64,000 nt of DNA, from the sequence record OZ035762.1; one strand, 5' to 3'. Made by a program: the position numbers and the translations under genes. Positions 46,109-63,585 of this stretch are shown here, piece by piece. The notes beneath the pieces are model-generated. The model was not told the DNA's origin. It did not search any database and was given only the letters and a program-made list of their open reading frames with translations. The DNA is from Felixounavirus LF82P1. Each line of letters starts with the position of its first letter. Position 1 is the stretch's first letter.

Positions 46109-46146
46109 TCGACGCAGCGGGGCTAAATAGCCCCAGATACCTCAAC

Positions 46147-46169
46147 AGCCCCTCATAGGGGCTTTTTTA
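46147..46169 (+). terminator. rho-independent terminator closing the small-gene array
   Basis: AGCCCCTC-ATAG-GGGCT + TTTTTT; preceded by second hairpin GGGGCTAAATAGCCCC. Confidence 0.6.
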
Positions 46170-46599
46170 CGTCTATCCAATCCTTATACAATCCCTTTCC
46201 CTCACCTTTCCAGAATCTTATCAGACCTTAAAAGCAATAACTCTATAGTCTACGCTATAACCTCTTATCAAATCAACTTAAATATAAGCCCATAACCCGA
46301 AAGGGAAGGGCAACCGTTTAAACGCTCTATAAAGCTCTATAACAGCCTTATCAACCTAACTTAAGGGATTGCATTAACTCACCCTAAAAAGCCCTTTATA
46401 AAGCTTCCCAGAGACTTAAAAGAATCTTATAAGGGTGTAAGCTTTATCGTCTCGTTAGTATTCTTGTGAATATCTAAAAAGGCTTGATAGTGTCTAAAAA
46501 GTATGTTATAGGGGCTATAAAGTTACTTTGAAGTAGCTTAAAAGTTACGTAAAAGAGGCTATAAAGATACGTAAATGCTAGCCCCCTTAACATCTTCTT

Positions 46600-47660
46600 A
46601 ACAAATTCTTAACAATCCCTACACAGTTATGCTTGTTAGAGACTTGTTAGTCCCTTGTTAAATCTCTGTTAAGACCACGTAAAAGCCTTGTAAGAGTCTT
46701 TGGCATAGCCTTTAAAGCTCCTGTAAAGCCTTATAAAAAGGTGTCTGCATAGTTGGGGTGTAATTACTAGGAAGAGGTTTAAAAGAGCTTACAAGGAGCT
46801 ATAGAGAGCTTTTAAAAGGGCTATTTAAAGAGTCACTAAGAGGGAAAGGGAACGATAAGAAAAGAGATAGTGACCGTGTTAATAGCTTGTTAAAAAGATT
46901 AGACACTTGTTAGAAACTTGTTAATTATCTTAACAAAATAACTCTTAAAAATTAACTTGTTAGCTCTTGTTAGTCATCTGTTAAGAGACTATAAAGACCA
47001 TGTATCGACTGTTAAGAACTTGTTACAGCTTTGTTAGTTCTGTTAAGAGTCTGTTAAGACCTCTGAAGAGATGTTAAGAGGATGTAATAGTTGTTAAGAG
47101 ATTGTTAATGATATTTTAAAATTCTGAAAAGGGGGGTGTTACAGGGATGTTAAGGGCTACCAAGCAGATATACATCTTCTACAGATATTTTTCAGTTCCT
47201 TCAGAGACCCTAAAAAATGACTTGATAGTCCTATTTTATAAAAATTTTAAGATTCTGAATAATTACCTATACAGCCTTTTAAAAATACAGGTAATAACAG
47301 GCTTATAAGATACCTTGTTAGTACCGTGTTAGACCTTGTGAGATAAGGTCTGTAAAGATATTCCTGTTAAGTTTGTTAAAACAGTCTATATAGAGGCTTA
47401 GTAGCACCTAGTGAACACCTATAGAGAGTATCATAGCTTACCTAGAGATTAAGAGGTGTATAGGAGCTTCTAAGAGGGTATAGAGAGAGGGTTAAGGTGA
47501 TTGTATAGGTTGTTAAGAAGGCTTGTTAGAGGGCTAGTTAGAAGGGTTATACAGAGGTCTATTAAGACCACTAGATAGATACTAAGATACTATATAGTAC
47601 TATATAACTATATAGAGAGTAAGATTAAGAAGGTTGTTAAGAAGGGTAGATATTTTGTTC
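46600..47660. repeat. ORF-free iteron-like region: more than 30 copies of YTGTTARR (TTGTTAAGA / TTGTTAGA) plus CTATAAAG/ATAGAGAG motifs
   Basis: No ORF of 60 aa or more on either strand between 46109 and 47747; dense short direct repeats in both orientations. Confidence 0.7.
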
Positions 47661-47711
47661 ACATATGATGGTGACCCAGAGGTTGGGACAACCGATAAAA
47701 TTTTATAAAAG

Positions 47712-47734
47712 TAAAAAGCCCCCAATTAAGGAGG
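47712..47734 (-). terminator. rho-independent terminator (minus strand)
   Basis: On minus strand: AGCCTCC-TTAATT-GGGGGCT hairpin followed by T-run. Confidence 0.5.
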
Positions 47735-47747
47735 CTCTTAAGATATT

Positions 47748-48371
47748 TTAAATCAGTGTTTCCAGAACTGTTTTTAGGGATGACTTAGTTGTCTGATAAA
47801 AATGAGTGAATCCGTTGTTATTATCGAATATCTGCATCATGATATCATCTCCCTTGATTGGATACACTCGGATATCATAGTGAAACCCATTAAAGACAGC
47901 AGAACCATTACAGAACACACTAAAATCATCCACTGAGATGTACTCTTCATGACCTGTGATTTTTATACAAACGCCTTTACTCGGTCTCTTAGGGTTGATA
48001 TCTTCCATCACAGAAATACTCTGTCCACCAAGAGATACCATAGTGACCACTTTACGGTTCTTCTGTTTAAAGTACATCTTAACTTTCTGCAAAGTGTCTT
48101 CATAGAATGGATAAGACCTTTCTACAAAGATTCCTTCAAGTGGCTCTTTACCATTTTCAACTTCTCGGTTATGCCGTACTGCAAAGATAATTTGTTCGAA
48201 CCAGTCAAGATTTTCTTCGGAGAGTGCTTCTCGAACATCACTCCAGTCAAGTACTAGGTAGTTACCTTCAACTTCTTTTAAGTTATCTTTTTCCATAGAT
48301 ATCACACCATTATCGTAAAACTTGATATTCTGGTACTGCGAATTTATTACTATTGTTCTTGATGAGGTCAT
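47748..48371 (-). CDS. hypothetical protein
   Basis: ORF track 207 aa; true start may be internal ATG at 48296. Confidence 0.45.
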   Translation of the reverse strand: MTSSRTIVINSQYQNIKFYDNGVISMEKDNLKEVEGNYLVLDWSDVREALSEENLDWFEQIIFAVRHNREVENGKEPLEGIFVERSYPFYEDTLQKVKMYFKQKNRKVVTMVSLGGQSISVMEDINPKRPSKGVCIKITGHEEYISVDDFSVFCNGSAVFNGFHYDIRVYPIKGDDIMMQIFDNNNGFTHFYQTTKSSLKTVLETLI

Positions 48372-52923: not shown

Positions 52924-53388
52924 TTACTTTGGATATACACTGTCAAGATAAATGTCAGCTTCCATTCTACGTCTGTTTTTCAGGCCGTTTGAAGTGACTT
53001 TCTGACCTTTGACTGTAACCTTGTTCCACCACTGCATAGCCTCTGCACAACCTACCTTATTACCAGCGTTGTGGCGCTTGATAAATGTGGAATCCTGCAT
53101 AGCTGTGATACCAATGTTGTATGTTTCACTTACAAGTGCGTCAAACTCATTCTGAGAAGTTGGAACCTTGATGGCTTTGTTCACTGCTGCAACGAACTTT
53201 TCAACATCTGCGAGAAGATACTGTTCAGCTTGTTCAGCGGTAATCTTCATACCCATCTTAACAGGTTTACCAGCAATACGGATAGTCCCGTACCCAATTG
53301 TTGGGATTCCAGCAGAATCTTCGTAAGCCTCTAGCTTAAGACCTTCAAAGAACTTAATAGCTTCTAAACCTTTTCTTGAGAGTTGCAT
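52924..53388 (-). CDS. lysozyme (T4 e-type, glycoside hydrolase family 24)
   Basis: 154 aa; N-terminal GLEAIKFFEGLKLEAYEDSAGIPTIGYGT with catalytic Glu/Asp/Thr pattern. Confidence 0.75.
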   Translation of the reverse strand: MQLSRKGLEAIKFFEGLKLEAYEDSAGIPTIGYGTIRIAGKPVKMGMKITAEQAEQYLLADVEKFVAAVNKAIKVPTSQNEFDALVSETYNIGITAMQDSTFIKRHNAGNKVGCAEAMQWWNKVTVKGQKVTSNGLKNRRRMEADIYLDSVYPK

Positions 53389-54521
53389 TATGCCTCCCCT
53401 GCTGGGTTAACAGTAACTGTTGCTGCATTAGATGTTACAGAACCACCTGCACCAGTAACTACACAGGTGTAGCTTCCTGCATCAGCAGCGGTTGCACCTT
53501 CTTTGGTGTAAGTTGCAGTAGTTGCATCGAGGATGTCTTCCTCACCTTTCTTCCACTGGTAACCTGTCGCACCTGTTGCCACAACATTCAGCGTTAAGGT
53601 ATCACCTTCAGTGATTTCTTGATTGGTTGGCTGTTGAGTGATTACTGGAAGTGCATTCACAGTTACTACAGCAGCATTAGATTCCACTACACCACCTGCA
53701 CCTGTTACAACGCAAGTGTATGAACCAGCATCTGCTGGCAGCGCACCAGACTTGCTATAGGTAGCATCTGTAGCCGAAGGAATGTCAGAGCCATCTTTCT
53801 TCCACTGGTAGCCTGTTGCACCTGTTGCAGTCACTTCCAAGTTAATGCTTTCACCCTCATTGATGGTCTGGCTAGAAGGTTGCTGTGTAATCACAGGCAG
53901 TGCGTTGACAGTAACTGTTGCCGCATCTGAGGTAACACTTGTCCCAGCCTCTCCAGACACAACACAAGTATAGGAACCAGCATCAGAAGGTGCTACAGAC
54001 TGTTTTGTGTAGGTTGCAGATGTGGCGCTAGTGATATCCTCACCATTCTTTTTCCATTGATATCCAGTGGCATTAGTTGCAATAACGCTTAGGGTAAGTG
54101 TGCCACCTTCATTTACTGTTTGGTTGGTTGGTTGCTGAGTGATTGATGGTGGCTTGATAGCATCCTTCAGCTTAGCATTCAACATTGAGAATGGCTTAAC
54201 TCTTGCCAACCATTCACAATAAACTGTATCAACGTCTTTACCATTGATAATTGCATATTGTAAGTCCATGAAGAAGTCAGAAGTTCTCATTTGAGCGCCG
54301 ATGCTGTAAAGCAACTCATCACTAAATGGGACTTTATAGTCGGGTTTGTAGTCAAACTTCTCAACTTCTGCAATATCAGCTTCAGGCCAATATGAACTAT
54401 AGGTAAGTGGTAAAATAGCCTCTTGATATGTTCTAAAATCATATCTCTTACCAGCCTTTACATTTGCAATGAAACCCTTCACAAACTCTTTGAAGTCTGG
54501 GTAAGTCTTTGCTTTAATCAT
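53388..54521 (-). CDS. protein with three tandem Ig-like domains
   Basis: 377 aa; three repeats ending ..TGATGYQWKK..DAGSYTCVV..; N-terminal domain paralogous to 54518-54889. Confidence 0.55.
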   Translation of the reverse strand: MIKAKTYPDFKEFVKGFIANVKAGKRYDFRTYQEAILPLTYSSYWPEADIAEVEKFDYKPDYKVPFSDELLYSIGAQMRTSDFFMDLQYAIINGKDVDTVYCEWLARVKPFSMLNAKLKDAIKPPSITQQPTNQTVNEGGTLTLSVIATNATGYQWKKNGEDITSATSATYTKQSVAPSDAGSYTCVVSGEAGTSVTSDAATVTVNALPVITQQPSSQTINEGESINLEVTATGATGYQWKKDGSDIPSATDATYSKSGALPADAGSYTCVVTGAGGVVESNAAVVTVNALPVITQQPTNQEITEGDTLTLNVVATGATGYQWKKGEEDILDATTATYTKEGATAADAGSYTCVVTGAGGSVTSNAATVTVNPAGEA

Positions 54522-58180: not shown

Positions 58181-58257
58181 CTCTGTTTAGCTCAGCTTGG
58201 TAGAGCGTTCCGTTTGGGGCGGTAAGGCCGGAGGTTCAAGTCCTCCAACAGAGACCA
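58181..58257 (+). tRNA. tRNA-Pro (anticodon TGG)
   Basis: acceptor CTCTGTT/AACAGAG, anticodon loop TTTGGGG, T-arm GGAGG-TTCAAGT-CCTCC, CCA encoded. Confidence 0.8.
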
Positions 58258-58264
58258 AATTAAT

Positions 58265-58342
58265 GTTCCAGTAGACAAAATGGTATAGTCACCACTCTTT
58301 CAAAGTGGACATCTGAGGGTTCAAATCCCTTCTGGAACGCCA
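58265..58342 (+). tRNA. tRNA-Glu (anticodon TTC)
   Basis: acceptor GTTCCAG/CTGGAAC, anticodon stem CCACT/AGTGG loop CTTTCAA, T-loop TTCAAAT, CCA. Confidence 0.75.
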
Positions 58343-58344
58343 GT

Positions 58345-58425
58345 TTTGACAGAAGACCAAATACAGCAAACTTAATCTTATTCATCTGAAGGTAAATCGG
58401 ACAAAGAAGAGATTTGGTCTGGTCA
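58345..58425 (+). repeat. structured repeat copy 1 (AGACCAAAT ... ATTTGGTCT helix enclosing about 45-nt insert)
   Basis: 9-bp inverted repeat; conserved AGAAGACC..TACAGCAA box. Confidence 0.45.
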
Positions 58426-58433
58426 TTAAGAAT

Positions 58434-58510
58434 TGCGGGTATAGAGAAAGGGCGTCTCACATGTCTCATTAGCATGGTATCGGCAGGTTCGACTCCTGCA
58501 CCCGCCTCCA
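58434..58510 (+). tRNA. tRNA with anticodon CAT (Met/Ile-lysidine type), atypical acceptor
   Basis: D-stem GAGA/TCTC, anticodon stem CATGT/GCATG loop CTCATTA, T-arm GCAGG-TTCGACT-CCTGC, CCA; 1-72 pairing imperfect. Confidence 0.45.
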
Positions 58511-58583
58511 AATTTACAGAAGACCGTTTACAGCAACATTTATTAAATTTTTAGCGGAAAAATTGAAAGATACGGTCTGGTAA
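58511..58583 (+). repeat. structured repeat copy 2 (AGACCGT ... ACGGTCT helix)
   Basis: Box AAATTTACAGAAGACCGTTTACAGCAA identical to copy 4. Confidence 0.45.
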
Positions 58584-58593
58584 TACTAAACAT

Positions 58594-58670
58594 GGTTAGG
58601 AAGCACATAAGGTATGTGCGGTCGCCTGTTAAGCGAATGGCACAGGGTTCGAATCCCTGACTAACCGCCA
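58594..58670 (+). tRNA. tRNA-Asn (anticodon GTT)
   Basis: acceptor GGTTAGG/ACTAACC, D-stem GCAC/GTGC, anticodon loop CTGTTAA, T-arm CAGGG-TTCGAAT-CCCTG, CCA. Confidence 0.75.
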
Positions 58671-58739
58671 AATTTAGGAGAGAAGCGATTGCTCACCGAT
58701 TTGTAAGGTGCAAGTCCTTAGCCTGAATAGAAATTAAAT

Positions 58740-58827
58740 GTGTCGTTATCCCGTAGATGGTAGCGGTGGGGACTGTAAATCCCTTGTCATTGAGACTCGG
58801 TAGGTTCGACTCCTACACGGCACACCA
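58740..58827 (+). tRNA. tRNA-Tyr (anticodon GTA), long variable arm
   Basis: acceptor GTGTCGT/ACGGCAC, anticodon stem GGGGA/TCCCT loop CTGTAAA, variable arm about 15 nt, T-arm GTAGG-TTCGACT-CCTAC, CCA. Confidence 0.75.
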
Positions 58828-58832
58828 ATAAA

Positions 58833-58910
58833 GGTTATGTAGTTTAATTTGGTTAAAATACTCCCCTGTCACGGGAGATGATGAGGGTTCAAATCCCTTC
58901 GTAACCGCCA
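58833..58910 (+). tRNA. tRNA-Asp (anticodon GTC)
   Basis: acceptor GGTTATG/CGTAACC, anticodon stem CTCCC/GGGAG loop CTGTCAC, T-loop TTCAAAT, CCA. Confidence 0.8.
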
Positions 58911-58965
58911 ATTTTGAGAGGGCTATTTAGCCCCTCCCTTAAAGGGTTCTTACGAGTATCCTTTA

Positions 58966-59046
58966 AAGGAGCAGAAGACCAAATACAGCAAGTTACTTAA
59001 AATTTCAAGCCAATTTAATTTTGAAAAATTTAAAACTTGGTCTGGC
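58966..59046 (+). repeat. structured repeat copy 3 (AGACCAA ... TTGGTCT helix)
   Basis: Same conserved box AGAAGACCAAATACAGCAA; compensatory stem changes vs copies 2/4. Confidence 0.45.
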
Positions 59047-59051
59047 TCAAC

Positions 59052-59190
59052 AAATTTACAGAAGACCGTTTACAGCAAAACTTAAACAATCTATTTCTCG
59101 GTAAAGAAAAGGCGAAGGTTCGATTCCTTCACTCGGCAGATGTCGAGTTGGTGTAATGGTAGCACTTAAGATGATAAACAACGGTCTGGT
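59052..59190 (+). ncRNA. candidate Y-RNA-like element: terminal helix (AGACCGTT/AACGGTCT) enclosing a circularly permuted tRNA-like module
   Basis: Order T-arm GAAGG-TTCGATT-CCTTC (59114-59130), acceptor 3' ACTCGGC, 4 nt, acceptor 5' GTCGAGT (7 bp complementary), D-arm-like GGTGTAATGGTAGCAC; no anticodon arm. Confidence 0.35.
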
Positions 59191-59338
59191 AATTATCTTT
59201 GTAGATAAGTTATTAAGCTTACCTGTGAGTATGCGACCACAAAGGGTGAAAGGGTAAATTCTAGATTTAAACCCAAAAAGGCACATCGCTACAGACCTTA
59301 AGCAAGTCTGGGTAGCTTATCTACAAAGATAATTTAAT

Positions 59339-59414
59339 GGAAGTGTAGCAGAATGGTGATGCGGCAGACTTTTAATCTGACAGGCGATGGGTTCGAATCC
59401 CTCCACTTCTACCA
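59339..59414 (+). tRNA. tRNA-Lys (anticodon TTT)
   Basis: acceptor GGAAGTG/CACTTCT, anticodon loop CTTTTAA, T-loop TTCGAAT, CCA; paralog of Lys-CTT tRNA with compensatory anticodon-stem change. Confidence 0.7.
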
Positions 59415-59418
59415 ATAT

Positions 59419-59495
59419 GGTTCAGTCGCAGATAAGGTAATGCAAGGGTCTCATAAGCCCTATGAATGTGGGTTCGAATCCCATCTGAACCTCCA
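59419..59495 (+). tRNA. tRNA-Met (anticodon CAT)
   Basis: acceptor GGTTCAG/CTGAACC, anticodon stem AGGGT/GCCCT loop CTCATAA, T-arm GTGGG-TTCGAAT-CCCAT, CCA. Confidence 0.75.
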
Positions 59496-59497
59496 AT

Positions 59498-59572
59498 TGT
59501 GGGTTAGCATAAATGGTAATGCAAACGGCTGATAACCGTTAGAAGAGGGTTCGATACCCTCACCTACAACCA
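59498..59572 (+). tRNA. tRNA-Ile (anticodon GAT)
   Basis: acceptor TGTGGGT/ACCTACA, D-stem GCAT/ATGC, anticodon stem AACGG/CCGTT loop CTGATAA, T-arm GAGGG-TTCGATA-CCCTC, CCA. Confidence 0.75.
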
Positions 59573-59587
59573 AGTTCAATAAAGTTG

Positions 59588-59616
59588 TTGACATTGAGAT
59601 GTGACTACTTTATAGT
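59588..59616 (+). promoter_or_regulatory. sigma70-like promoter TTGACA-N17-TATAGT inside tRNA cluster
   Basis: Near-consensus -35 and -10 with 17-nt spacer. Confidence 0.55.
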
Positions 59617-59820
59617 AACCTTAGTTTTCGTTGCGTAGCGTCTATTTTGCAAATTTAAAATAAATGCAAACGACAATGTTTTTCTGGCAGTAGCTTGATA
59701 GGCTAAACACCAGTGAGGTCTTCCAATCCCTCATCAAAGAATTTGGCGTACTCGCCCACGGTATGATTAATAAGGTGGGCATCTTTAAGGGCTTTCTAAG
59801 AGAGTCTTTAAAGATAATTA

Positions 59821-59902
59821 CGGGGCGTATCTCAGCGGTCTTCTAAACCGCCGTTAACCGAGTAAGTGGAGTATGCGGGTTCGAGTCCTGCCGCCTCGAC
59901 CA
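59821..59902 (+). tRNA. atypical tRNA-like gene, anticodon loop CTTCTAA (TCT, Arg-type), D-arm apparently absent
   Basis: acceptor CGGGGCG/CGCCTCG, perfect anticodon arm GCGGT-CTTCTAA-ACCGC, T-arm GCGGG-TTCGAGT-CCTGC, CCA; only 7 nt between acceptor and anticodon stem, 23-nt region before T-arm. Confidence 0.4.
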
Positions 59903-60045
59903 ATTTAGTTAGCAGATTACTTAGACGACCTAAGCGGGTCTTCCTGTAGGGAGGTGGTCTGTATCTCATGTTTTCCAGAACATGTAAATAATCTGAGAAG
60001 GGGCTTTACAGTGTTGAGATAATACGGTAAGCTTCGAATTATAGT

Positions 60046-60128
60046 ATGGGACGATGTTAAGACTCTAAGGCATGAGCAACGGCCTCCAAAACCGTTTCAA
60101 AGGGGTTCAACTCCTCCGTCCCATGCCA
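60046..60128 (+). tRNA. tRNA-Trp (anticodon CCA), atypical extended D region
   Basis: acceptor ATGGGAC/GTCCCAT, anticodon loop CTCCAAA with stem ACGGC/ACCGT, T-loop TTCAACT, CCA; about 8 extra nt before D-stem. Confidence 0.45.
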
Positions 60129-60141
60129 AAGTCTTATTAGG

Positions 60142-60229
60142 GGTAGGTAGCGGCTAATGGCAGCCAAACAGTCTTGAAAACTGTTGCCACTGTAGAGATA
60201 CGGTGAGGGTTCGACTCCTTTACTTACCG
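60142..60229 (+). tRNA. tRNA-Ser (anticodon TGA), long variable arm
   Basis: acceptor GGTAGGT/ACTTACC, 3-bp D-stem, anticodon arm ACAGT-CTTGAAA-ACTGT, about 20-nt variable arm, T-loop TTCGACT; CCA not encoded. Confidence 0.7.
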
Positions 60230-60388
60230 CCTAATAAGATTTTTAAAGCCAAGCTTCATTCGGATGTTGCTTTGGTATCCCTCGTGTATTGTCGTACACA
60301 CTGATAAAACACCTAGTAGGTGTCACGGAGAAGAGATAATATCAAGCTCTCCAAAGGTTCTAGTCACCGGATTAAACAAGACTATGCA

Positions 60389-60412
60389 AAGACCTTTTAG
60401 GTCTTTTTAGAG
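60389..60412 (+). terminator. hairpin + T-run inside tRNA cluster spacer
   Basis: AAGACC-TTTT-AGGTCTT followed by TTTT. Confidence 0.4.
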
Positions 60413-60487
60413 GGCTTCTAAGGTTATTACAGCTTGTTGTGGAACCTTGTTGCTTAGGTTCTTAGAAGTTCTCTAAAAAGATTTAAT

Positions 60488-60565
60488 GGGAGATTGACGG
60501 TAATTGGTAAACCTATCTCGCTTAGAACGAGATGTTTGAGGGTTCGAATCCCTTGTCTCCTACCA
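60488..60565 (+). tRNA. tRNA with anticodon TAG (Leu by anticodon), short variable arm
   Basis: acceptor GGGAGAT/GTCTCCT, anticodon arm ATCTCG-CTTAGAA-CGAGAT, T-arm GAGGG-TTCGAAT-CCCTT, discriminator A, CCA. Confidence 0.6.
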
Positions 60566-60572
60566 AATTAAT

Positions 60573-60648
60573 GCAGGTGTAGCAAAATGGTTATGCGGCT
60601 GACTCTTAATCAGTAAGACGATGGGTTCAATTCCCTCCACCTGTACCA
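60573..60648 (+). tRNA. tRNA-Lys (anticodon CTT)
   Basis: acceptor GCAGGTG/CACCTGT, anticodon arm GCTGA-CTCTTAA-TCAGT, T-loop TTCAATT, CCA. Confidence 0.75.
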
Positions 60649-60654
60649 AACAAT

Positions 60655-60730
60655 GGGGTCATAGTTTATATGGTTAAAATTCGAGTTTTGCAAACTTGGG
60701 AACTGAGTTCAATTCTCAGTGACTCCACCA
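60655..60730 (+). tRNA. tRNA-Ala (anticodon TGC)
   Basis: acceptor GGGGTCA/TGACTCC (G3-U70), anticodon arm CGAGT-TTTGCAA-ACTTG, T-arm CTGAG-TTCAATT-CTCAG, CCA. Confidence 0.75.
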
Positions 60731-60736
60731 ATTAGT

Positions 60737-60811
60737 GCATCCATAGTTTAAACGGGAAAATTACAGTCTTCCAAACTGAGGTTGAGGGTTCGATTCCCTC
60801 TGGATGCTCCA
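60737..60811 (+). tRNA. tRNA-Gly (anticodon TCC)
   Basis: acceptor GCATCCA/TGGATGC, anticodon loop CTTCCAA, T-arm GAGGG-TTCGATT-CCCTC, CCA. Confidence 0.8.
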
Positions 60812-60825
60812 AATTAAGGTGTGAT

Positions 60826-61239
60826 ATGAAAATATGCAGTACTTGCAGAATACCAAAAGATGAAAGCTTATTCCATAAGAATAAGAACAAGAAAGACGGT
60901 CTTCAAAGTCAATGCAAAGATTGTGCAAGACTCCGTGATGCAAAGAGTTATCAAGCAAATGATAAAAGGAAAGAGGCTATTAAAAGCACTCGTAACTTCA
61001 AGAGAGAGCATAACAAGACTCTAGCTAGAAGGTACAAAGCTTTATGCAAATGTCATATATGTGGTGAGAAAGAACCAGTTGCACTGGATTTACACCATAC
61101 AGACCCTTCCCAGAAAGATTTGAATCCTGCATCACTTTATTCATACTCCACAAAAAGATTAAAAGATGAAATCAGAAAGTGCATTGTCTTGTGCGCTAAC
61201 TGTCACAGAAAAGTACATGCTGGTATCATAAAAGTTTAA
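60826..61239 (+). CDS. HNH homing endonuclease inserted in tRNA cluster
   Basis: 137 aa; CxxC..CxxC and HNH motif CHICG..LDLHH..CANCHRKVH. Confidence 0.65.
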   Translation: MKICSTCRIPKDESLFHKNKNKKDGLQSQCKDCARLRDAKSYQANDKRKEAIKSTRNFKREHNKTLARRYKALCKCHICGEKEPVALDLHHTDPSQKDLNPASLYSYSTKRLKDEIRKCIVLCANCHRKVHAGIIKV

Positions 61240-61240
61240 T

Positions 61241-61317
61241 GCTGCTTTCGTATAATTGGCTATTACACATCCCTTGTAAGGATGGAAATGCAGGTTCGAG
61301 TCCTGTGAGCAGCACCA
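61241..61317 (+). tRNA. tRNA-Thr (anticodon TGT)
   Basis: acceptor GCTGCTT/GAGCAGC, anticodon arm CATCC-CTTGTAA-GGATG, T-arm GCAGG-TTCGAGT-CCTGT, CCA. Confidence 0.8.
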
Positions 61318-61412
61318 ATTCAGAGGTCAAGTGAAAGACCGCTGGTGTCAACTGAAGACCGTAACAAATTCCACGGAGTTGAGTTAGCGGCACAACTTCA
61401 GACCTCTTTCAT
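61318..61412 (+). ncRNA. candidate structured RNA (about 95-nt imperfect rod-like hairpin) between tRNA-Thr and tRNA-Val
   Basis: Nested inverted repeats CAGAGGTCAAGT/ACTTCAGACCTCT, CCGCT/AGCGG, TCAACT/AGTTGA, CCGT/ACGG; contains GAAGACCGT box. Confidence 0.3.
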
Positions 61413-61487
61413 ACTCGCTTAGTTTATATGGTAAAACATCACCCTTACAAGATGAAGAAAAAGGTTCAAGTCCTTTAGTGAGTACCA
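61413..61487 (+). tRNA. tRNA-Val (anticodon TAC)
   Basis: acceptor ACTCGCT/AGTGAGT, D-stem GTTT/AAAC, anticodon loop CTTACAA, T-arm AAAGG-TTCAAGT-CCTTT, CCA. Confidence 0.7.
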
Positions 61488-61488
61488 T

Positions 61489-61566
61489 GTTCCAGTATCC
61501 CAATTGGCAGAGGATGCAAGCTCAAACCTTGTACTAGTGACGGTTCGAATCCGTCTTGGAACACCA
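61489..61566 (+). tRNA. tRNA with anticodon CAA (Leu by anticodon), short variable arm
   Basis: acceptor GTTCCAG/TTGGAAC, D-loop AATTGGCAG, anticodon arm GCAAG-CTCAAAC-CTTGT, T-arm GACGG-TTCGAAT-CCGTC, discriminator A, CCA. Confidence 0.6.
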
Positions 61567-61571
61567 ATTTT

Positions 61572-61647
61572 GCAGGATTAGTTCAAATGGATAGAGCAAC
61601 AGTCTACGAAGCTGTTAATAGGGGTTCGAATCCCTTATCCTGCGCCA
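61572..61647 (+). tRNA. tRNA-Arg (anticodon ACG)
   Basis: acceptor GCAGGAT/ATCCTGC, D-stem GTTC/GAGC, anticodon arm ACAGT-CTACGAA-GCTGT, T-loop TTCGAAT, CCA. Confidence 0.8.
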
Positions 61648-61666
61648 ATTTAAAGAGGCTATTTAG

Positions 61667-62224
61667 ATGAGATATTTGAAGTATGCTTCATGGATTTTCT
61701 TAGCTTTGTTAGAACCATTTGCAGCAATCTTAGCAGTTATCTTAGCACCTTTTGTAGTTCCATTTTACAGTGAGAAGAAAGGACACTTACCTTTCGGATT
61801 TAGATGGATGGAAACTTATGACAACCCAATTGATGGTGATGAAGGTCACGTTAAAAGATGGGCTAATATTAGATGGATTGGTAAGCTTGGTGTCTATATG
61901 CAGAGAGTCGGTTGGCTCTGGAGAAACAAAGCTTATAACTTCTCTTACCATGTGTTAGGAAGAGATGTAAAAGATGTTACTAAGTGGAAAGGTAATATCA
62001 ACGTAAGTTCTAACCCTGAAGATAATCAGACAGGTTATCTCCTAATGTGGAACAGCAATGCTTGGGGATTATTCGCTTTTATACCATCAATTAAAATCTT
62101 TGGTAAACAGTTCTACTGGAGAATTTATATTGGGTGGAAGCTAAAAAGTGTTGTCCCAGAAGAAAGAGCATTCTCAAGGGAAAGAGTTATGTTGGCATTC
62201 TTTATTCATCCACTAAGAAATTAA
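61667..62224 (+). CDS. hypothetical membrane protein
   Basis: 185 aa; N-terminal hydrophobic segments. Confidence 0.5.
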   Translation: MRYLKYASWIFLALLEPFAAILAVILAPFVVPFYSEKKGHLPFGFRWMETYDNPIDGDEGHVKRWANIRWIGKLGVYMQRVGWLWRNKAYNFSYHVLGRDVKDVTKWKGNINVSSNPEDNQTGYLLMWNSNAWGLFAFIPSIKIFGKQFYWRIYIGWKLKSVVPEERAFSRERVMLAFFIHPLRN

Positions 62225-62232
62225 AGATTTAA

Positions 62233-62308
62233 AGGGGATTAGTTTACAAGGTTAAAACCTCGGTCTTTGAAATCGAAGAAGTTGGTTCAATTCCAACATC
62301 CCCCGCCA
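62233..62308 (+). tRNA. tRNA-Gln (anticodon TTG)
   Basis: acceptor AGGGGAT/ATCCCCC with unpaired 1-72, D-stem GTTT/AAAC, anticodon arm TCGGT-CTTTGAA-ATCGA, T-arm GTTGG-TTCAATT-CCAAC, CCA. Confidence 0.7.
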
Positions 62309-62310
62309 AT

Positions 62311-62389
62311 GCTCCATTACTCCAATTGGCAGAGAGGCCAGACTTAAAATCTGTGTTATGTATCGGTTCGAATCCGATATGGAGTACCA
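62311..62389 (+). tRNA. tRNA with anticodon TAA (Leu by anticodon), short variable arm
   Basis: acceptor GCTCCAT/ATGGAGT, D-loop AATTGGCAG, anticodon loop CTTAAAA, T-arm ATCGG-TTCGAAT-CCGAT, discriminator A, CCA; paralog of CAA tRNA. Confidence 0.55.
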
Positions 62390-62394
62390 AATTT

Positions 62395-62470
62395 AGCGGT
62401 ATAGCATAACTGGCAATGCAACAGTCTCTGAAGCTGTCTTATTAAGGTTCAAATCCTTATGCCGCTGCCA
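62395..62470 (+). tRNA. tRNA-Gln (anticodon CTG)
   Basis: acceptor AGCGGTA/TGCCGCT, D-stem GCAT/ATGC, anticodon arm ACAGT-CTCTGAA-GCTGT, T-arm TAAGG-TTCAAAT-CCTTA, CCA. Confidence 0.7.
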
Positions 62471-62501
62471 CTTCTAAGGGTTCTTACGAGAGTCCTTAAA
62501 T

Positions 62502-62577
62502 GTGGCCTTATCATAAATGGTAATGACCCATGCTGTGAACATGGTCTATACGGGTTCAAATCCCGTAGGTCACCCCA
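62502..62577 (+). tRNA. tRNA-His (anticodon GTG)
   Basis: acceptor GTGGCCT/AGGTCAC, D-stem TCAT/ATGA, anticodon arm CCATG-CTGTGAA-CATGG, T-arm ACGGG-TTCAAAT-CCCGT, discriminator C, CCA. Confidence 0.8.
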
Positions 62578-62583
62578 ATTTAT

Positions 62584-62659
62584 AGTCCAAGTAGCTTATA
62601 TGGTTAAAGCGCGTGTCTGAAAAACATGAGAAGAGGGTTCAAATCCCACTGGACTACCA
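62584..62659 (+). tRNA. tRNA-Phe (anticodon GAA)
   Basis: D-stem GCTT/AAGC, anticodon arm CGTGT-CTGAAAA-ACATG, T-loop TTCAAAT; acceptor boundaries uncertain by 1-2 nt. Confidence 0.6.
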
Positions 62660-62675
62660 ATTTCAAAGGTGCTTA

Positions 62676-63410
62676 ATGAAAGAGATGACAGAACAAGGTA
62701 AGGAGATTTTTAATCTCTTAAAAACCGGTAAAGGGTTTTCTAACCCACTTATTACTGGTGCAGCAGTTCTCGGTGGAACCGTAGCTGCTTCTACATCACT
62801 TGTAAGCTCTATTAGTTCTGTAACAGACCCTACAATGCAGGAGAAACTTGTTGCTGCTGGACTTACAACAGTCCTTCTAAACAGCTTTACAACAAGCCTT
62901 ACAAGCACTACAGCAACTACTAAAACTCTGACAGACTACGGTCAAAAGTCTATTGATGAGTTTTCATCACGTATGCAGGTAGCAAAGGGGTATTCCAATG
63001 TTATGGGTGCAGCAGGAGAACAAGTTGGTTGTACACCATTCAGTGGTATCATGGGTGTTGCTACAGAGTATGGTCAAAAAGCTATTGACATGATGAACAG
63101 TACACTAGATAGTGTTAATGGTGTGTTAAGTGACTTACAAGATGCTATTGATAAGGGTCTTGATACTGTTTCTGATTTAGCTAATCAGGCTGTTAGTAAG
63201 ATTAATGAAGGTATTTCAAAGATTACAGCTTATGCAGATGAAGTTGTGCAGATGATTGAAGAAGAAGCTTCCCTTATTGCAGAGTACCTTAAAACGAATA
63301 TCAATGGGTTCTTAGCAGGTATCTTACCAGACTGGTTTGATGATGCCTGTAAAACTGGTGTGATTGACACTATTGCAACACCAGAAATGAAGAGCGCATT
63401 ACAGAAATAA
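62676..63410 (+). CDS. hypothetical Ser/Thr-rich protein
   Basis: ORF track 62613 trimmed to first ATG downstream of tRNA-Phe (AAGGTG RBS-like). Confidence 0.5.
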   Translation: MKEMTEQGKEIFNLLKTGKGFSNPLITGAAVLGGTVAASTSLVSSISSVTDPTMQEKLVAAGLTTVLLNSFTTSLTSTTATTKTLTDYGQKSIDEFSSRMQVAKGYSNVMGAAGEQVGCTPFSGIMGVATEYGQKAIDMMNSTLDSVNGVLSDLQDAIDKGLDTVSDLANQAVSKINEGISKITAYADEVVQMIEEEASLIAEYLKTNINGFLAGILPDWFDDACKTGVIDTIATPEMKSALQK

Positions 63411-63412
63411 AT

Positions 63413-63505
63413 GGAAGATTAACCCTAAAAGGTAAGGGAGCAGTTTGCTAAACTGCCAGTAGCTGAGAAATCGGTGTACCAGTTCAAGTCTGGTATCTTC
63501 CTCCA
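63413..63505 (+). tRNA. tRNA-Ser (anticodon GCT), long variable arm
   Basis: acceptor GGAAGAT/ATCTTCC, 3-bp D-stem, anticodon arm GCAGT-TTGCTAA-ACTGC, long variable arm, T-arm ACCAG-TTCAAGT-CTGGT, CCA. Confidence 0.8.
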
Positions 63506-63509
63506 ATTT

Positions 63510-63585
63510 GAATCCGTGACAGAAATGGCTATGTGCCTGTCTGCAAAACAGGTTTATAAGGGTTCGAGTCCCTTCGGATTCTCCA
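63510..63585 (+). tRNA. tRNA-Cys (anticodon GCA)
   Basis: acceptor GAATCCG/CGGATTC, anticodon arm CCTGT-CTGCAAA-ACAGG, T-arm AAGGG-TTCGAGT-CCCTT, CCA. Confidence 0.8.

What the first reader, a model, noticed from the sequence alone, without database searches (positions are those of the whole stretch)
46109..47747. 1.6-kb ORF-free region packed with iteron-like short repeats (YTGTTARR, CTATAAAG, ATAGAGAG)
No ORF of 60 aa or more exists on either strand, which is unusual in an otherwise tightly packed genome. The region carries more than 30 copies of TTGTTAAGA/TTGTTAGA-type motifs in both orientations (densest 46620-47650), plus CTATAAAG/CTATAGAG and TATAGTACTATATAACTATATAGAGAG clusters. It sits at the switch between the rightward early block and the leftward block starting at 47748. 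Candidate functions are a replication origin with iterons, a packaging/terminal region, or a binding array for a phage regulator.
Basis: seen in the sequence. Interest (0 to 1): 0.65.

Follow-up and report, generated by a model that had tools for sequence, protein, structure and literature searches.

The report
Phage genome ends with phased repeats
The gene-free, repeat-packed stretch is where the linear DNA of this Felix O1-like phage begins and ends: a 581-bp terminal repeat with non-coding flanks, carpeted with short, helically phased protein-binding motifs that most likely guide cutting and packaging of the DNA; the ends were already known, the motif carpet is undescribed.

Summary
Window 46109-47747 has no ORF of 60 aa or more. 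It carries 30 TGTTA[AG] motifs (18.3/kb against 1.56/kb elsewhere) and a strong 11-bp periodicity found nowhere else in the window.

The window is a Felixounavirus genome written in a permuted order. The region is the junction of the two physical genome ends. By homology to relatives with determined ends, 46581-47161 is the 581-bp direct terminal repeat (DTR). 46109-46580 is the right-end and 47162-47747 the left-end non-coding subterminal DNA. Two gene blocks converge on the region and each stops at an intrinsic terminator.

The whole 1.6 kb is at least as conserved as the flanking genes across three genera. In a fourth genus (Erwinia phage Tian), where the DNA no longer aligns, the syntenic gap keeps the same TGTTAAGA array. 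It also keeps an invariant 13-mer, AAGCAGATATACA, which in the other three genera lies just outside the right DTR boundary.

Best reading: a cis-acting concatemer-junction and packaging region, a scaled-up version of the T7 terminal repeat with its CCTAAAG arrays. The binding protein is unidentified.

The terminal location is already published and annotated. The phased array and boundary 13-mer appear undescribed. Interest is modest.

The parts
46119..46169 (+). Two tandem hairpins that end the rightward gene block. The second (stem-loop 46147-46163 plus a T-run) is an intrinsic terminator.
   Evidence: Terminator scan. A terminator is annotated at the homologous spot in AYO145A and Maleficent. 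Sequence read.
46181..46580 (+). Right-end subterminal non-coding array. Phased units are of the CTATAAAG / CTTAAAAG / CGTAAAAG / CTTATAAG type. It has no TGTTAR copies and is unique to the right genome end, just inside the right DTR copy.
   Evidence: 11.0-bp periodicity, power 7.22 against a shuffle maximum of 3.69. Tandem units of 21-22 bp. Motif list. 457 nt lie between the last gene and the right DTR in Pr103Blw.
46581..47161 (+). Direct terminal repeat (DTR), 581 bp, present once here because the assembly collapsed the two end copies. It holds 23 of the 30 TGTTA[AG] copies.
   Evidence: Maps base for base onto the annotated 581-bp DTR of Pr103Blw and the exact 581-bp end duplication of I14.1. 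The UAB_69 annotated DTR maps to 46579-47163. At least 9 records start at the equivalent of 46581 and one ends at the equivalent of 47160. Mooglevirus HP1 has a DTR at 1-570 starting at the same spot. Experimental DTR of 608 bp in UAB_Phi87 (PMC4837284).
46586..46615 (-). Three reverse-orientation motif copies (CTTAACA, 11-bp spacing) at the very start of the DTR, that is, at the left physical end.
   Evidence: Conserved in all 10 aligned relatives.
46632..47110 (+). Forward TGTTA[AG] arrays inside the DTR. Clusters lie at 46632-46675 (4 copies, 11-bp spacing), 46875-46925, and 46956-47110 (including a 62-bp tandem duplication at 46954-47079).
   Evidence: Spacings are 9-11, 20-22 and 31 bp.
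47137..47161 (+). Right DTR boundary element, GTGTTACAGGGATGTTAAGGGCTACC. Read inward from the end it resembles the left end (GGTAGCCCTTAACAT against GCCCCCTTAACAT).
   Evidence: conserved in three genera. The resemblance is not seen at the predicted boundaries in Tian.
47162..47174 (+). Invariant 13-mer AAGCAGATATACA immediately outside the right DTR boundary. Candidate cleavage or recognition site.
   Evidence: The only copy with 1 or fewer mismatches in the window. It follows the annotated DTR directly in Pr103Blw (582) and HP1 (571). It is found once in each fetched locus of Felix O1, UAB_69, Sf15, SUSP1, SUSP2 and Maleficent, and occurs once in the whole 85-kb Tian genome, inside the syntenic gap.
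47175..47300 (.). AT-rich, motif-poor spacer of the left-end subterminal DNA (up to 85% AT).
47301..47660 (+). Left-end subterminal array with 7 TGTTA[AG] copies, TATAGAGAG-type units and an 8-10-bp TACTATATAG tandem (47577-47616).
   Evidence: Periodicity 11.75 bp, power 4.77 against a shuffle maximum of 3.67.
47704..47739 (-). Intrinsic terminator that ends the leftward gene block (last gene 47748-48371, - strand).
   Evidence: Terminator scan. Annotated terminators in AYO145A and Maleficent.

Best explanation
The region is the joined-up terminal region of a linear Felixounavirus genome.

Layout. In the virion, 46581-47161 is present at both ends as an exact 581-bp direct terminal repeat. 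47162-47747 is the non-coding DNA just inside the left end, and 46109-46580 the non-coding DNA just inside the right end. In replicating concatemers the three parts lie together exactly as in this window, forming the concatemer junction.

Function (inferred). About 50 short units are spaced at multiples of about 10.5-11 bp, so they face one side of the helix. TGTTAAGA-type units lie in the DTR and left-end flank, and CTWTAAAG-type units in the right-end flank. They are read as binding sites for one or two phage-encoded DNA-binding proteins. Those proteins would coat and bend this DNA into a nucleoprotein complex that marks the junction for the terminase.

Cutting (inferred). The terminase would cut at the two fixed boundaries: TA|GCCCCCTTAACAT on the left, and GGGCTACC|AAGCAGATATACA on the right. 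The repeat would then be duplicated by strand-displacement synthesis from staggered nicks, as proposed for T7.

Shown: the position of the ends (by homology), the array, its phasing and its conservation. Inferred: protein binding, the packaging role and the nick-and-copy step.
For: Ends:
- The DTR of Pr103Blw (PhageTerm, 581 bp) is annotated at both record ends and maps to 46581-47161.
- I14.1 carries an exact 581-bp end duplication at the same coordinates.
- The UAB_69 annotated DTR maps to 46579-47163.
- Mooglevirus HP1 has a 570-bp DTR starting at the same base.
- At least 9 independently deposited records start at this base.
- Bal31 digestion plus run-off sequencing gave a 608-bp DTR and no cos ends in UAB_Phi87 (PMC4837284).

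Array:
- 12-fold enrichment with 26:4 strand bias, and no clusters anywhere else in the 64 kb.
- 11-bp periodicity in all three sub-parts and long-range helical phasing.

Selection:
- Identity to Mooglevirus and Suspvirus is 85-86% over about 1500 nt, against 74-85% for the flanking genes.
- 16-21 of the 26 + copies are kept in place in other genera.
- Boundary sequences are nearly invariant.
- In Kolesnikvirus Tian, which no longer aligns by blastn, the syntenic convergent 1.4-kb gap has 26 TGTTA[AG] copies (18.6/kb against 1.29/kb). It also holds the genome's only AAGCAGATATACA.

Insulation: terminators lie on both sides, with no promoter excess.

Precedent: the T7 160-bp repeat carries and is flanked by CCTAAAG arrays.
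Against: - No reads are available for this phage, so its own ends are inferred by homology only.
- No binding protein is identified. No small terminase subunit is recognisable next to the large subunit in the subfamily (PMC3185647).
- 1.6 kb and about 50 sites is far more than any known terminase recognition site needs, so part of the array may serve another purpose.
- The similarity between the two ends read inward is built largely from the general motif and is not seen at the predicted Tian boundaries.
- The function of the analogous T7 arrays is, to my knowledge, itself unproven.
Confidence: 0.6

Rival explanations
1. Replication origin. The phased repeats are iteron-like sites for a phage initiator, and the AT-rich stretches (about 46914-46960 and 47214-47275) are the unwinding element. 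This could coexist with the terminal function.
For: There are many directly repeated short sites next to 82-85% AT segments. The cumulative GC skew peaks near 47-48 kb. The region is strongly conserved.
Against: There are no DnaA, IHF or Fis consensus sites. The units are 8-11 bp, not the 17-22 bp typical of iterons, and no initiator gene is adjacent. The skew switch coincides with the switch in gene orientation, so it is uninformative. The array spreads over 1.6 kb rather than forming a compact origin.
Confidence: 0.15
2. End-handling array. The sites bind a protein that protects or tethers the two DNA ends after ejection (against RecBCD, or for end-to-end synapsis and concatemer formation), or that paces DNA ejection, as proposed for the repeat-rich region of the T5 terminal repeat.
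For: The arrays occupy the first and last 1.05-1.17 kb of the virion DNA, and no gene lies there. Both ends read inward begin with a similar sequence. Motif polarity is strongly one-sided.
Against: There is no direct evidence. Known end-protection proteins (own knowledge: T4 gp2, Mu Gam) are not sequence-specific. A 1.6-kb site-specific array is not needed for recombination between 581-bp repeats.
Confidence: 0.15
3. Transcription-related element: a binding array for a phage regulator, or genes for small RNAs or small proteins.
For: Some GenBank records annotate small hypothetical proteins here.
Against: No small ORF stays open across relatives. No Rfam family reaches its threshold. Promoter-like sites are not in excess (13 against 8.8 +/- 3.3). 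The motif does not cluster at any other place in the 64 kb. Terminators insulate the region on both sides.
Confidence: 0.04
4. No function of its own: repeat-rich filler produced by slippage and recombination at genome ends.
For: Local tandem duplications exist, for example the 62-bp unit x2 at 46954-47079. Lengths differ by a few tens of bp among relatives.
Against: The region is as conserved as, or more conserved than, the neighbouring genes. Motif cores are more conserved than spacers (0.79-0.92 against 0.65-0.78). The motif and architecture are kept in a genus whose DNA no longer aligns.
Confidence: 0.05

Closest known systems
Bacteriophage T7 concatemer junction: 160-bp exact terminal repeat with adjacent short-repeat arrays (the SRL/SRR arrays of Dunn and Studier 1983; that name and citation are from my own knowledge)
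   Same: Both have a short exact direct terminal repeat at fixed ends. Both have non-coding DNA in and around the repeat filled with a short motif in one orientation. T7 has 8 exact CCTAAAG copies at 175-340, with more inside the repeat and before the right repeat (checked). The T7 motif C[CAT]TAAAG even resembles the right-end-flank units CT[AT]TAAAG seen here.
   Different: The repeat here is 3.6 times longer (581 against 160 bp) and the arrays about 5 times longer. Spacing is 10.5-11 bp here against about 13 bp in the T7 left array. There are two motif families. No promoters or phage RNA polymerase are involved, whereas T7 has phiOL, phiOR and A0-A3 in the corresponding DNA. The large terminase is of another lineage (Terminase_6N/6C) and no small terminase subunit is recognisable.
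Published Felixounavirus / Mooglevirus direct terminal repeats (UAB_Phi87 608 bp, Pr103Blw 581 bp, UAB_69 618 bp, HP1 570 bp)
   Same: This is the same locus, with the same boundaries to within 2 bp, at 77-94% identity (PMC4837284; PMC8303462).
   Different: Those reports give only the length and position of the repeat. In the papers I could search, I found no description of the phased motif array, the conserved boundary 13-mer or the extension to Kolesnikvirus.
pac/cos recognition regions bound by small terminase subunits (SPP1 pacL/pacR, lambda cosB R sites; own knowledge)
   Same: Repeated short protein-binding sites flank a cleavage site, with DNA bending or wrapping implied by helical phasing.
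   Different: Those regions are 100-300 bp with 3-10 sites. Their ends are cohesive or permuted, whereas relatives of this phage have fixed blunt-type ends with an exact repeat and no cos ends (PMC4837284). The binding protein here is unknown.
Repeat-rich non-coding part of the T5 terminal repeat (own knowledge: Wang 2005; Davison 2015)
   Same: A large non-coding, repeat-dense block within or next to a direct terminal repeat of a virulent enterobacterial phage.
   Different: The T5 repeat is about 10 kb and carries pre-early genes, and its block is discussed as an injection-stop signal. No two-step DNA transfer is known for Felix O1-like phages. This was not tested here.

Membership tests
Short exact direct-terminal-repeat (DTR) genome ends / concatemer junction | The locus coincides with the physically determined virion DNA ends | tested here: met
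   By homology to relatives: Pr103Blw, I14.1, UAB_69 and HP1. At least 9 records start at the same base. Bal31 and run-off sequencing were done for UAB_Phi87 (PMC4837284).
Short exact direct-terminal-repeat (DTR) genome ends / concatemer junction | The segment is present twice, identically, at both ends of this phage's own virion DNA | not testable with these tools
   The window holds one collapsed copy, and no reads or virion DNA are available.
Short exact direct-terminal-repeat (DTR) genome ends / concatemer junction | The large terminase belongs to a clade that makes fixed ends with short repeats | not tested
   The terminase gene lies outside the window: the tRNA cluster that precedes it in relatives ends at 63585. 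PMC4837284 reports that Felix O1-like terminases form their own DTR cluster.
Short exact direct-terminal-repeat (DTR) genome ends / concatemer junction | Ends are fixed, not permuted (which excludes headful pac packaging) | tested here: met
   Independent records share the same first base, and two share the same 581-bp length.
Iteron-type replication origin | Host initiator or architectural sites (DnaA boxes, IHF/Fis) next to the repeats | tested here: not met
   There are 0 matches to TTWTNCACA, WATCAANNNNTTR or the Fis consensus in the region.
Iteron-type replication origin | Iterons of about 17-22 bp with an adjacent initiator gene | tested here: inconclusive
   The units are 8-11 bp at 10-11 bp spacing. 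The flanking genes are small hypothetical proteins whose function was not examined.
Iteron-type replication origin | Replication starts here | not testable with these tools
   This needs marker-frequency or 2D-gel data.
cos site (cohesive ends) | Single-stranded cohesive ends | not testable with these tools
   In the relative UAB_Phi87, heat treatment did not change the restriction pattern, so it has no cos ends (PMC4837284).
Known structured RNA families | Match to an Rfam covariance model at its gathering score | tested here: not met
   The best hits score 25.3 and 18.9 bits against gathering scores of 55 and 34.
Type II plasmid-partition centromere (parC-like phased 10-11-bp repeats) | Direct repeats phased with the helix | tested here: met
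Type II plasmid-partition centromere (parC-like phased 10-11-bp repeats) | Adjacent adaptor (ParR) and motor (ParM) genes | not tested
   None are annotated in the flanks of relatives. The flank proteins were not searched.

The most novel reading that the evidence does not exclude
The 1.6-kb array is a dedicated nucleoprotein scaffold. A still-unidentified DNA-binding protein, conserved across the Ounavirinae, polymerises on about 50 helically phased TGTTAAGA-type sites. That protein would replace the missing small terminase subunit. The phased array, rather than a compact pac or cos site, would then define where the large terminase cuts: at the invariant AAGCAGATATACA boundary. It might also tether the two genome ends. 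This would be a new mode of packaging-site recognition in a widespread, therapeutically used phage group.
Probability: 0.2. Interest if true: 0.6.

Novelty: new member of a known kind. Interest (0 to 1): 0.3.

Why it matters
- Assembly and annotation: Felix O1-like phages are diagnostic and therapeutic workhorses. Many of their GenBank records are permuted, lack the terminal repeat, or annotate spurious small proteins in this DNA. Fixed boundary sequences (TA|GCCCCCTTAACAT and GGGCTACC|AAGCAGATATACA) let the true ends be placed in any assembly of the group.
- Engineering: the array marks the cis-acting DNA that must be kept when these phages are engineered, rebooted or used as packaging vectors.
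- Mechanism: it gives a concrete bait (TGTTAAGA repeats) to fish for the unidentified packaging-recognition protein of a group in which no small terminase subunit has been found.
- Limit: the finding does not overturn anything. It extends the T7-type picture to a larger and better-conserved example.

Tried and rejected
- Small proteins: five ORFs of 30-53 aa were checked in ten relatives. All are broken by stops or frameshifts in several of the relatives.
- Structured RNA: the Rfam scan at a permissive threshold gave nothing credible.
- Promoters: no excess over shuffles.
- Host-factor sites: no DnaA, IHF, Fis or Chi sites.
- Inverted repeat bracketing the DTR as the cleavage signal: TAGCCC(CC)TTAACAT is present at both boundaries in three genera. 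However, it is made largely of the general motif, a third copy lies at 46503, and it is not seen at the predicted Tian boundaries. I kept it only as a secondary observation.
- Kolesnikvirus ends from the literature: the held Fifi106 record version starts inside coding-looking sequence. The Fifi318 record starts just after the tRNA cluster, with no end duplication. Neither is informative.
- Small terminase subunit: proteins upstream of the large terminase in Tian and Fifi318 hit only families of unknown function (DUF7217, phrog_2114, phrog_22528, phrog_23097).
- GC skew as an origin marker: rejected because it follows gene orientation.
- The Twort-like phage paper gave no support for my recollection that other phage terminal repeats are bracketed by inverted repeats.
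- The large protein databases, structure prediction and metagenome scans were not used, because the region is non-coding and its identity was settled by annotated phage records.

Full report
**1.

Between 46109 and 47747 the longest ORF on either strand is 53 aa. The core motif TGTTA[AG] occurs 30 times, 18.3 per kb against 1.56 per kb in the rest of the window. CTATA[AG]AG occurs 7 times, and ATAGAGAG 4 times with none elsewhere in 64 kb. Windows of 300 nt with four or more copies of the core motif exist only here.

Two details need correcting. The motifs are strongly one-sided, 26 on the + strand and 4 on the - strand. The two neighbouring gene blocks converge on the region rather than one of them starting there.

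**2. What the window is**

The region matches 256 phage records, 203 of them over at least 80% of its length at 77-94% identity. All named hits are Felix O1-like myophages: Ounavirinae of the genera Felixounavirus, Mooglevirus and Suspvirus. In annotated relatives it is an intergenic gap between convergent genes, with a rho-independent terminator annotated on each side. The same two terminators are found in the window at 46147-46163 (+) and 47739-47714 (-).

**3. The region contains the physical genome ends**

- Phage Pr103Blw (MW481326) is deposited with an annotated 581-bp 'short direct terminal repeat' at both ends, determined with PhageTerm (PMC8303462). It aligns end to end with window 46581-47161.
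- Phage I14.1 carries an exact 581-bp duplication at its two record ends that maps to the same coordinates.
- The 618-bp 'DTR' feature of UAB_69 maps to 46579-47163.
- Mooglevirus HP1 has a 570-bp repeat_region starting at the same base.
- At least nine records begin exactly at the equivalent of 46581, and one ends at the equivalent of 47160.
- For UAB_Phi87, Bal31 digestion and run-off sequencing gave a 608-bp direct terminal repeat. Heat treatment showed no cohesive ends (PMC4837284).
- The Felix O1 genome paper had already inferred short terminal repeats from the genome size (PMC3185647).

The window is therefore a permuted assembly in which the two repeat copies are collapsed. In the virion, 46581-47161 sits at both ends. 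47162-47747 is the non-coding DNA inside the left end, and 46109-46580 the non-coding DNA inside the right end. Transcription runs outward towards both ends and stops at the terminators. For this particular phage the assignment rests on homology, since no reads are available.

**4. Anatomy of the array**

All three sub-parts show a periodicity of about 11 bp: 11.0 in the right-end flank, 11.25 in the repeat and 11.75 in the left-end flank. For the whole region the spectral power is 6.34, against a maximum of 3.83 in shuffles and 3.68 in 74 other windows of the same size. Successive TGTTA[AG] copies are spaced 9-11, 20-22 or 31 bp apart. Over the long range they are in phase with a period of 10.45 bp (R 0.59, above all 500 random sets), so they lie on one face of the helix.

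- The right-end flank has no TGTTAR. It carries CTATAAAG, CTTAAAAG and CGTAAAAG units.
- The repeat begins with three reverse copies (CTTAACA, 46586-46615), then carries 19 forward copies.
- The left-end flank has an AT-rich motif-poor spacer, then seven more forward copies and TATAGAGAG-type units.

**5. Conservation**

Local identity of the non-coding region to Mooglevirus and Suspvirus phages is 85-86% over about 1500 nt. The two flanking genes reach 74-85% over shorter alignable stretches. Motif cores are more conserved than the spacers between them (0.79-0.92 against 0.65-0.78), and 16-21 of the 26 forward copies are kept in place in the other genera.

The boundary sequences are nearly invariant:
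- left: ACGTAAATGCTA|GCCCCCTTAACAT
- right: ATGTTAAGGGCTACC|AAGCAGATATACA

The 13-mer AAGCAGATATACA occurs once in the window, directly after the repeat. It occupies the same place in every relative examined.

The strongest evidence comes from Erwinia phage Tian (Kolesnikvirus), whose DNA no longer aligns with the region by blastn. Tian has a syntenic 1.4-kb gap between convergent genes. That gap holds 26 TGTTA[AG] copies (18.6 per kb against 1.29 per kb genome-wide), arranged mostly as reverse copies first and forward copies after. It also holds a different left-flank motif (CTTCTAAR, 11 copies) and the only AAGCAGATATACA of the 85-kb genome. A motif kept while the surrounding DNA has diverged is what a conserved DNA-binding protein would produce.

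**6. What it is not**

- None of the small ORFs stays open in relatives.
- No Rfam family reaches its threshold.
- Promoter-like sites are not in excess.
- There are no DnaA, IHF or Fis consensus sites.
- The GC-skew maximum near 47-48 kb coincides with the change of gene orientation, so it says nothing about an origin.

**7. Most likely mechanism**

The region is the concatemer junction and the cis-acting packaging and maturation region. The phased sites would be coated by one or two phage proteins, which bend the DNA and mark the junction. The terminase would cut at the two fixed boundaries. The 581-bp segment would then be duplicated so that each daughter genome receives a copy, as in the staggered-nick and strand-displacement model for T7 (established knowledge, not tested here).

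Shown: the position of the ends (by homology), the array, its phasing, its uniqueness and its conservation. Inferred: protein binding, the packaging role and the duplication step.

I put about 0.95 on the terminal-repeat assignment and about 0.6 on the whole statement including the packaging role.

Rivals, which need not be exclusive:
- a replication origin (0.15);
- an end-protection, end-tethering or ejection-pacing array (0.15);
- transcription-related elements (0.04);
- functionless filler (0.05).

Points against a simple terminase site: the size (1.6 kb, about 50 sites) exceeds any known recognition region. In addition, no small terminase subunit is recognisable next to the large subunit in this subfamily (PMC3185647).

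**8. Comparison with known systems**

The closest known system is the T7 concatemer junction. I checked the T7 record. It has a 160-bp exact terminal repeat with CCTAAAG copies inside it, eight exact copies at 175-340 next to the left repeat, and related units before the right repeat. The architecture is the same.

The differences are scale (581 bp and 1.6 kb here), spacing (10.5-11 bp against about 13 bp) and the presence of two motif families. The junction here also has no promoter excess and no annotated promoters, whereas T7 has them, and the terminase is of another lineage.

The terminal repeat itself is already published and annotated for relatives. I found no description of the phased array, the boundary 13-mer or the Kolesnikvirus counterpart in the searchable literature. 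That is absence in that library, not proof of novelty.

**9. Verdict**

This is a real, strongly selected feature, correctly flagged. It is a new and larger example of a known kind of element rather than a new kind. Interest is modest (0.3). The most novel reading still open is that the array, with an unknown protein, replaces a small terminase subunit (probability about 0.2).

Noticed in passing
window 1-64000; also L019+L020 (Erwinia phage Tian, whole genome): GATC is completely absent from the 64-kb window (0 against 182 +/- 12.5 expected) and from the entire 85,232-bp Tian genome. Many 6-bp palindromes (AGATCT, ATGCAT, CTGCAG and others) are also absent from the window. This points to subfamily-wide avoidance of restriction or Dam sites.
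   Followed up: partly
window 58181-63585: There is a cluster of 25 tRNA genes on the + strand, typical of Felix O1-like phages. In relatives the large terminase gene follows the tRNA cluster, so here it should lie just beyond the window end.
   Followed up: no
L005/L006 (PP892526.1 vB_EcoM_I14.1): The GenBank record is filed under Tequintavirus (Demerecviridae), but its ends are Felixounavirus sequence at about 92-93% identity to this window. This is probably a taxonomy mislabel.
   Followed up: partly
L020 32403-33798 (Tian record 82403-83798): The Kolesnikvirus counterpart of the region. By homology of the two boundary sequences, the predicted DTR is about 82948-83388 (about 440 bp). Its left-flank motif is CTTCTAAR instead of CTWTAAAG, which suggests a second, co-evolving binding specificity.
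   Followed up: partly
L021/L022 (PQ051114 Fifi318) and L017 (OR284297 Fifi106): These Kolesnikvirus records are said to start at PhageTerm-derived ends. They do not start at the syntenic non-coding region, and Fifi318 shows no end duplication; its first bases look like the 3' part of a tRNA. Their stated ends are doubtful.
   Followed up: partly
L023 (T7 1-420): The T7 array motif C[CAT]TAAAG resembles the right-end-flank units CT[AT]TAAAG of this phage, although the phages are unrelated. This may be coincidence or a shared preference for bendable TAAAG steps.
   Followed up: no
window 53001-54000: There is a local G+C peak (0.462 against about 0.38 around it).
   Followed up: no
window about 10000: GC skew flips from negative to positive at about 10 kb. 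The ORFs there were not listed, so whether this marks a change in gene orientation was not checked.
   Followed up: no
one search hit list: One record named as a Staphylococcus phage is among the matches to this enterobacterial phage region. It was not examined.
   Followed up: no
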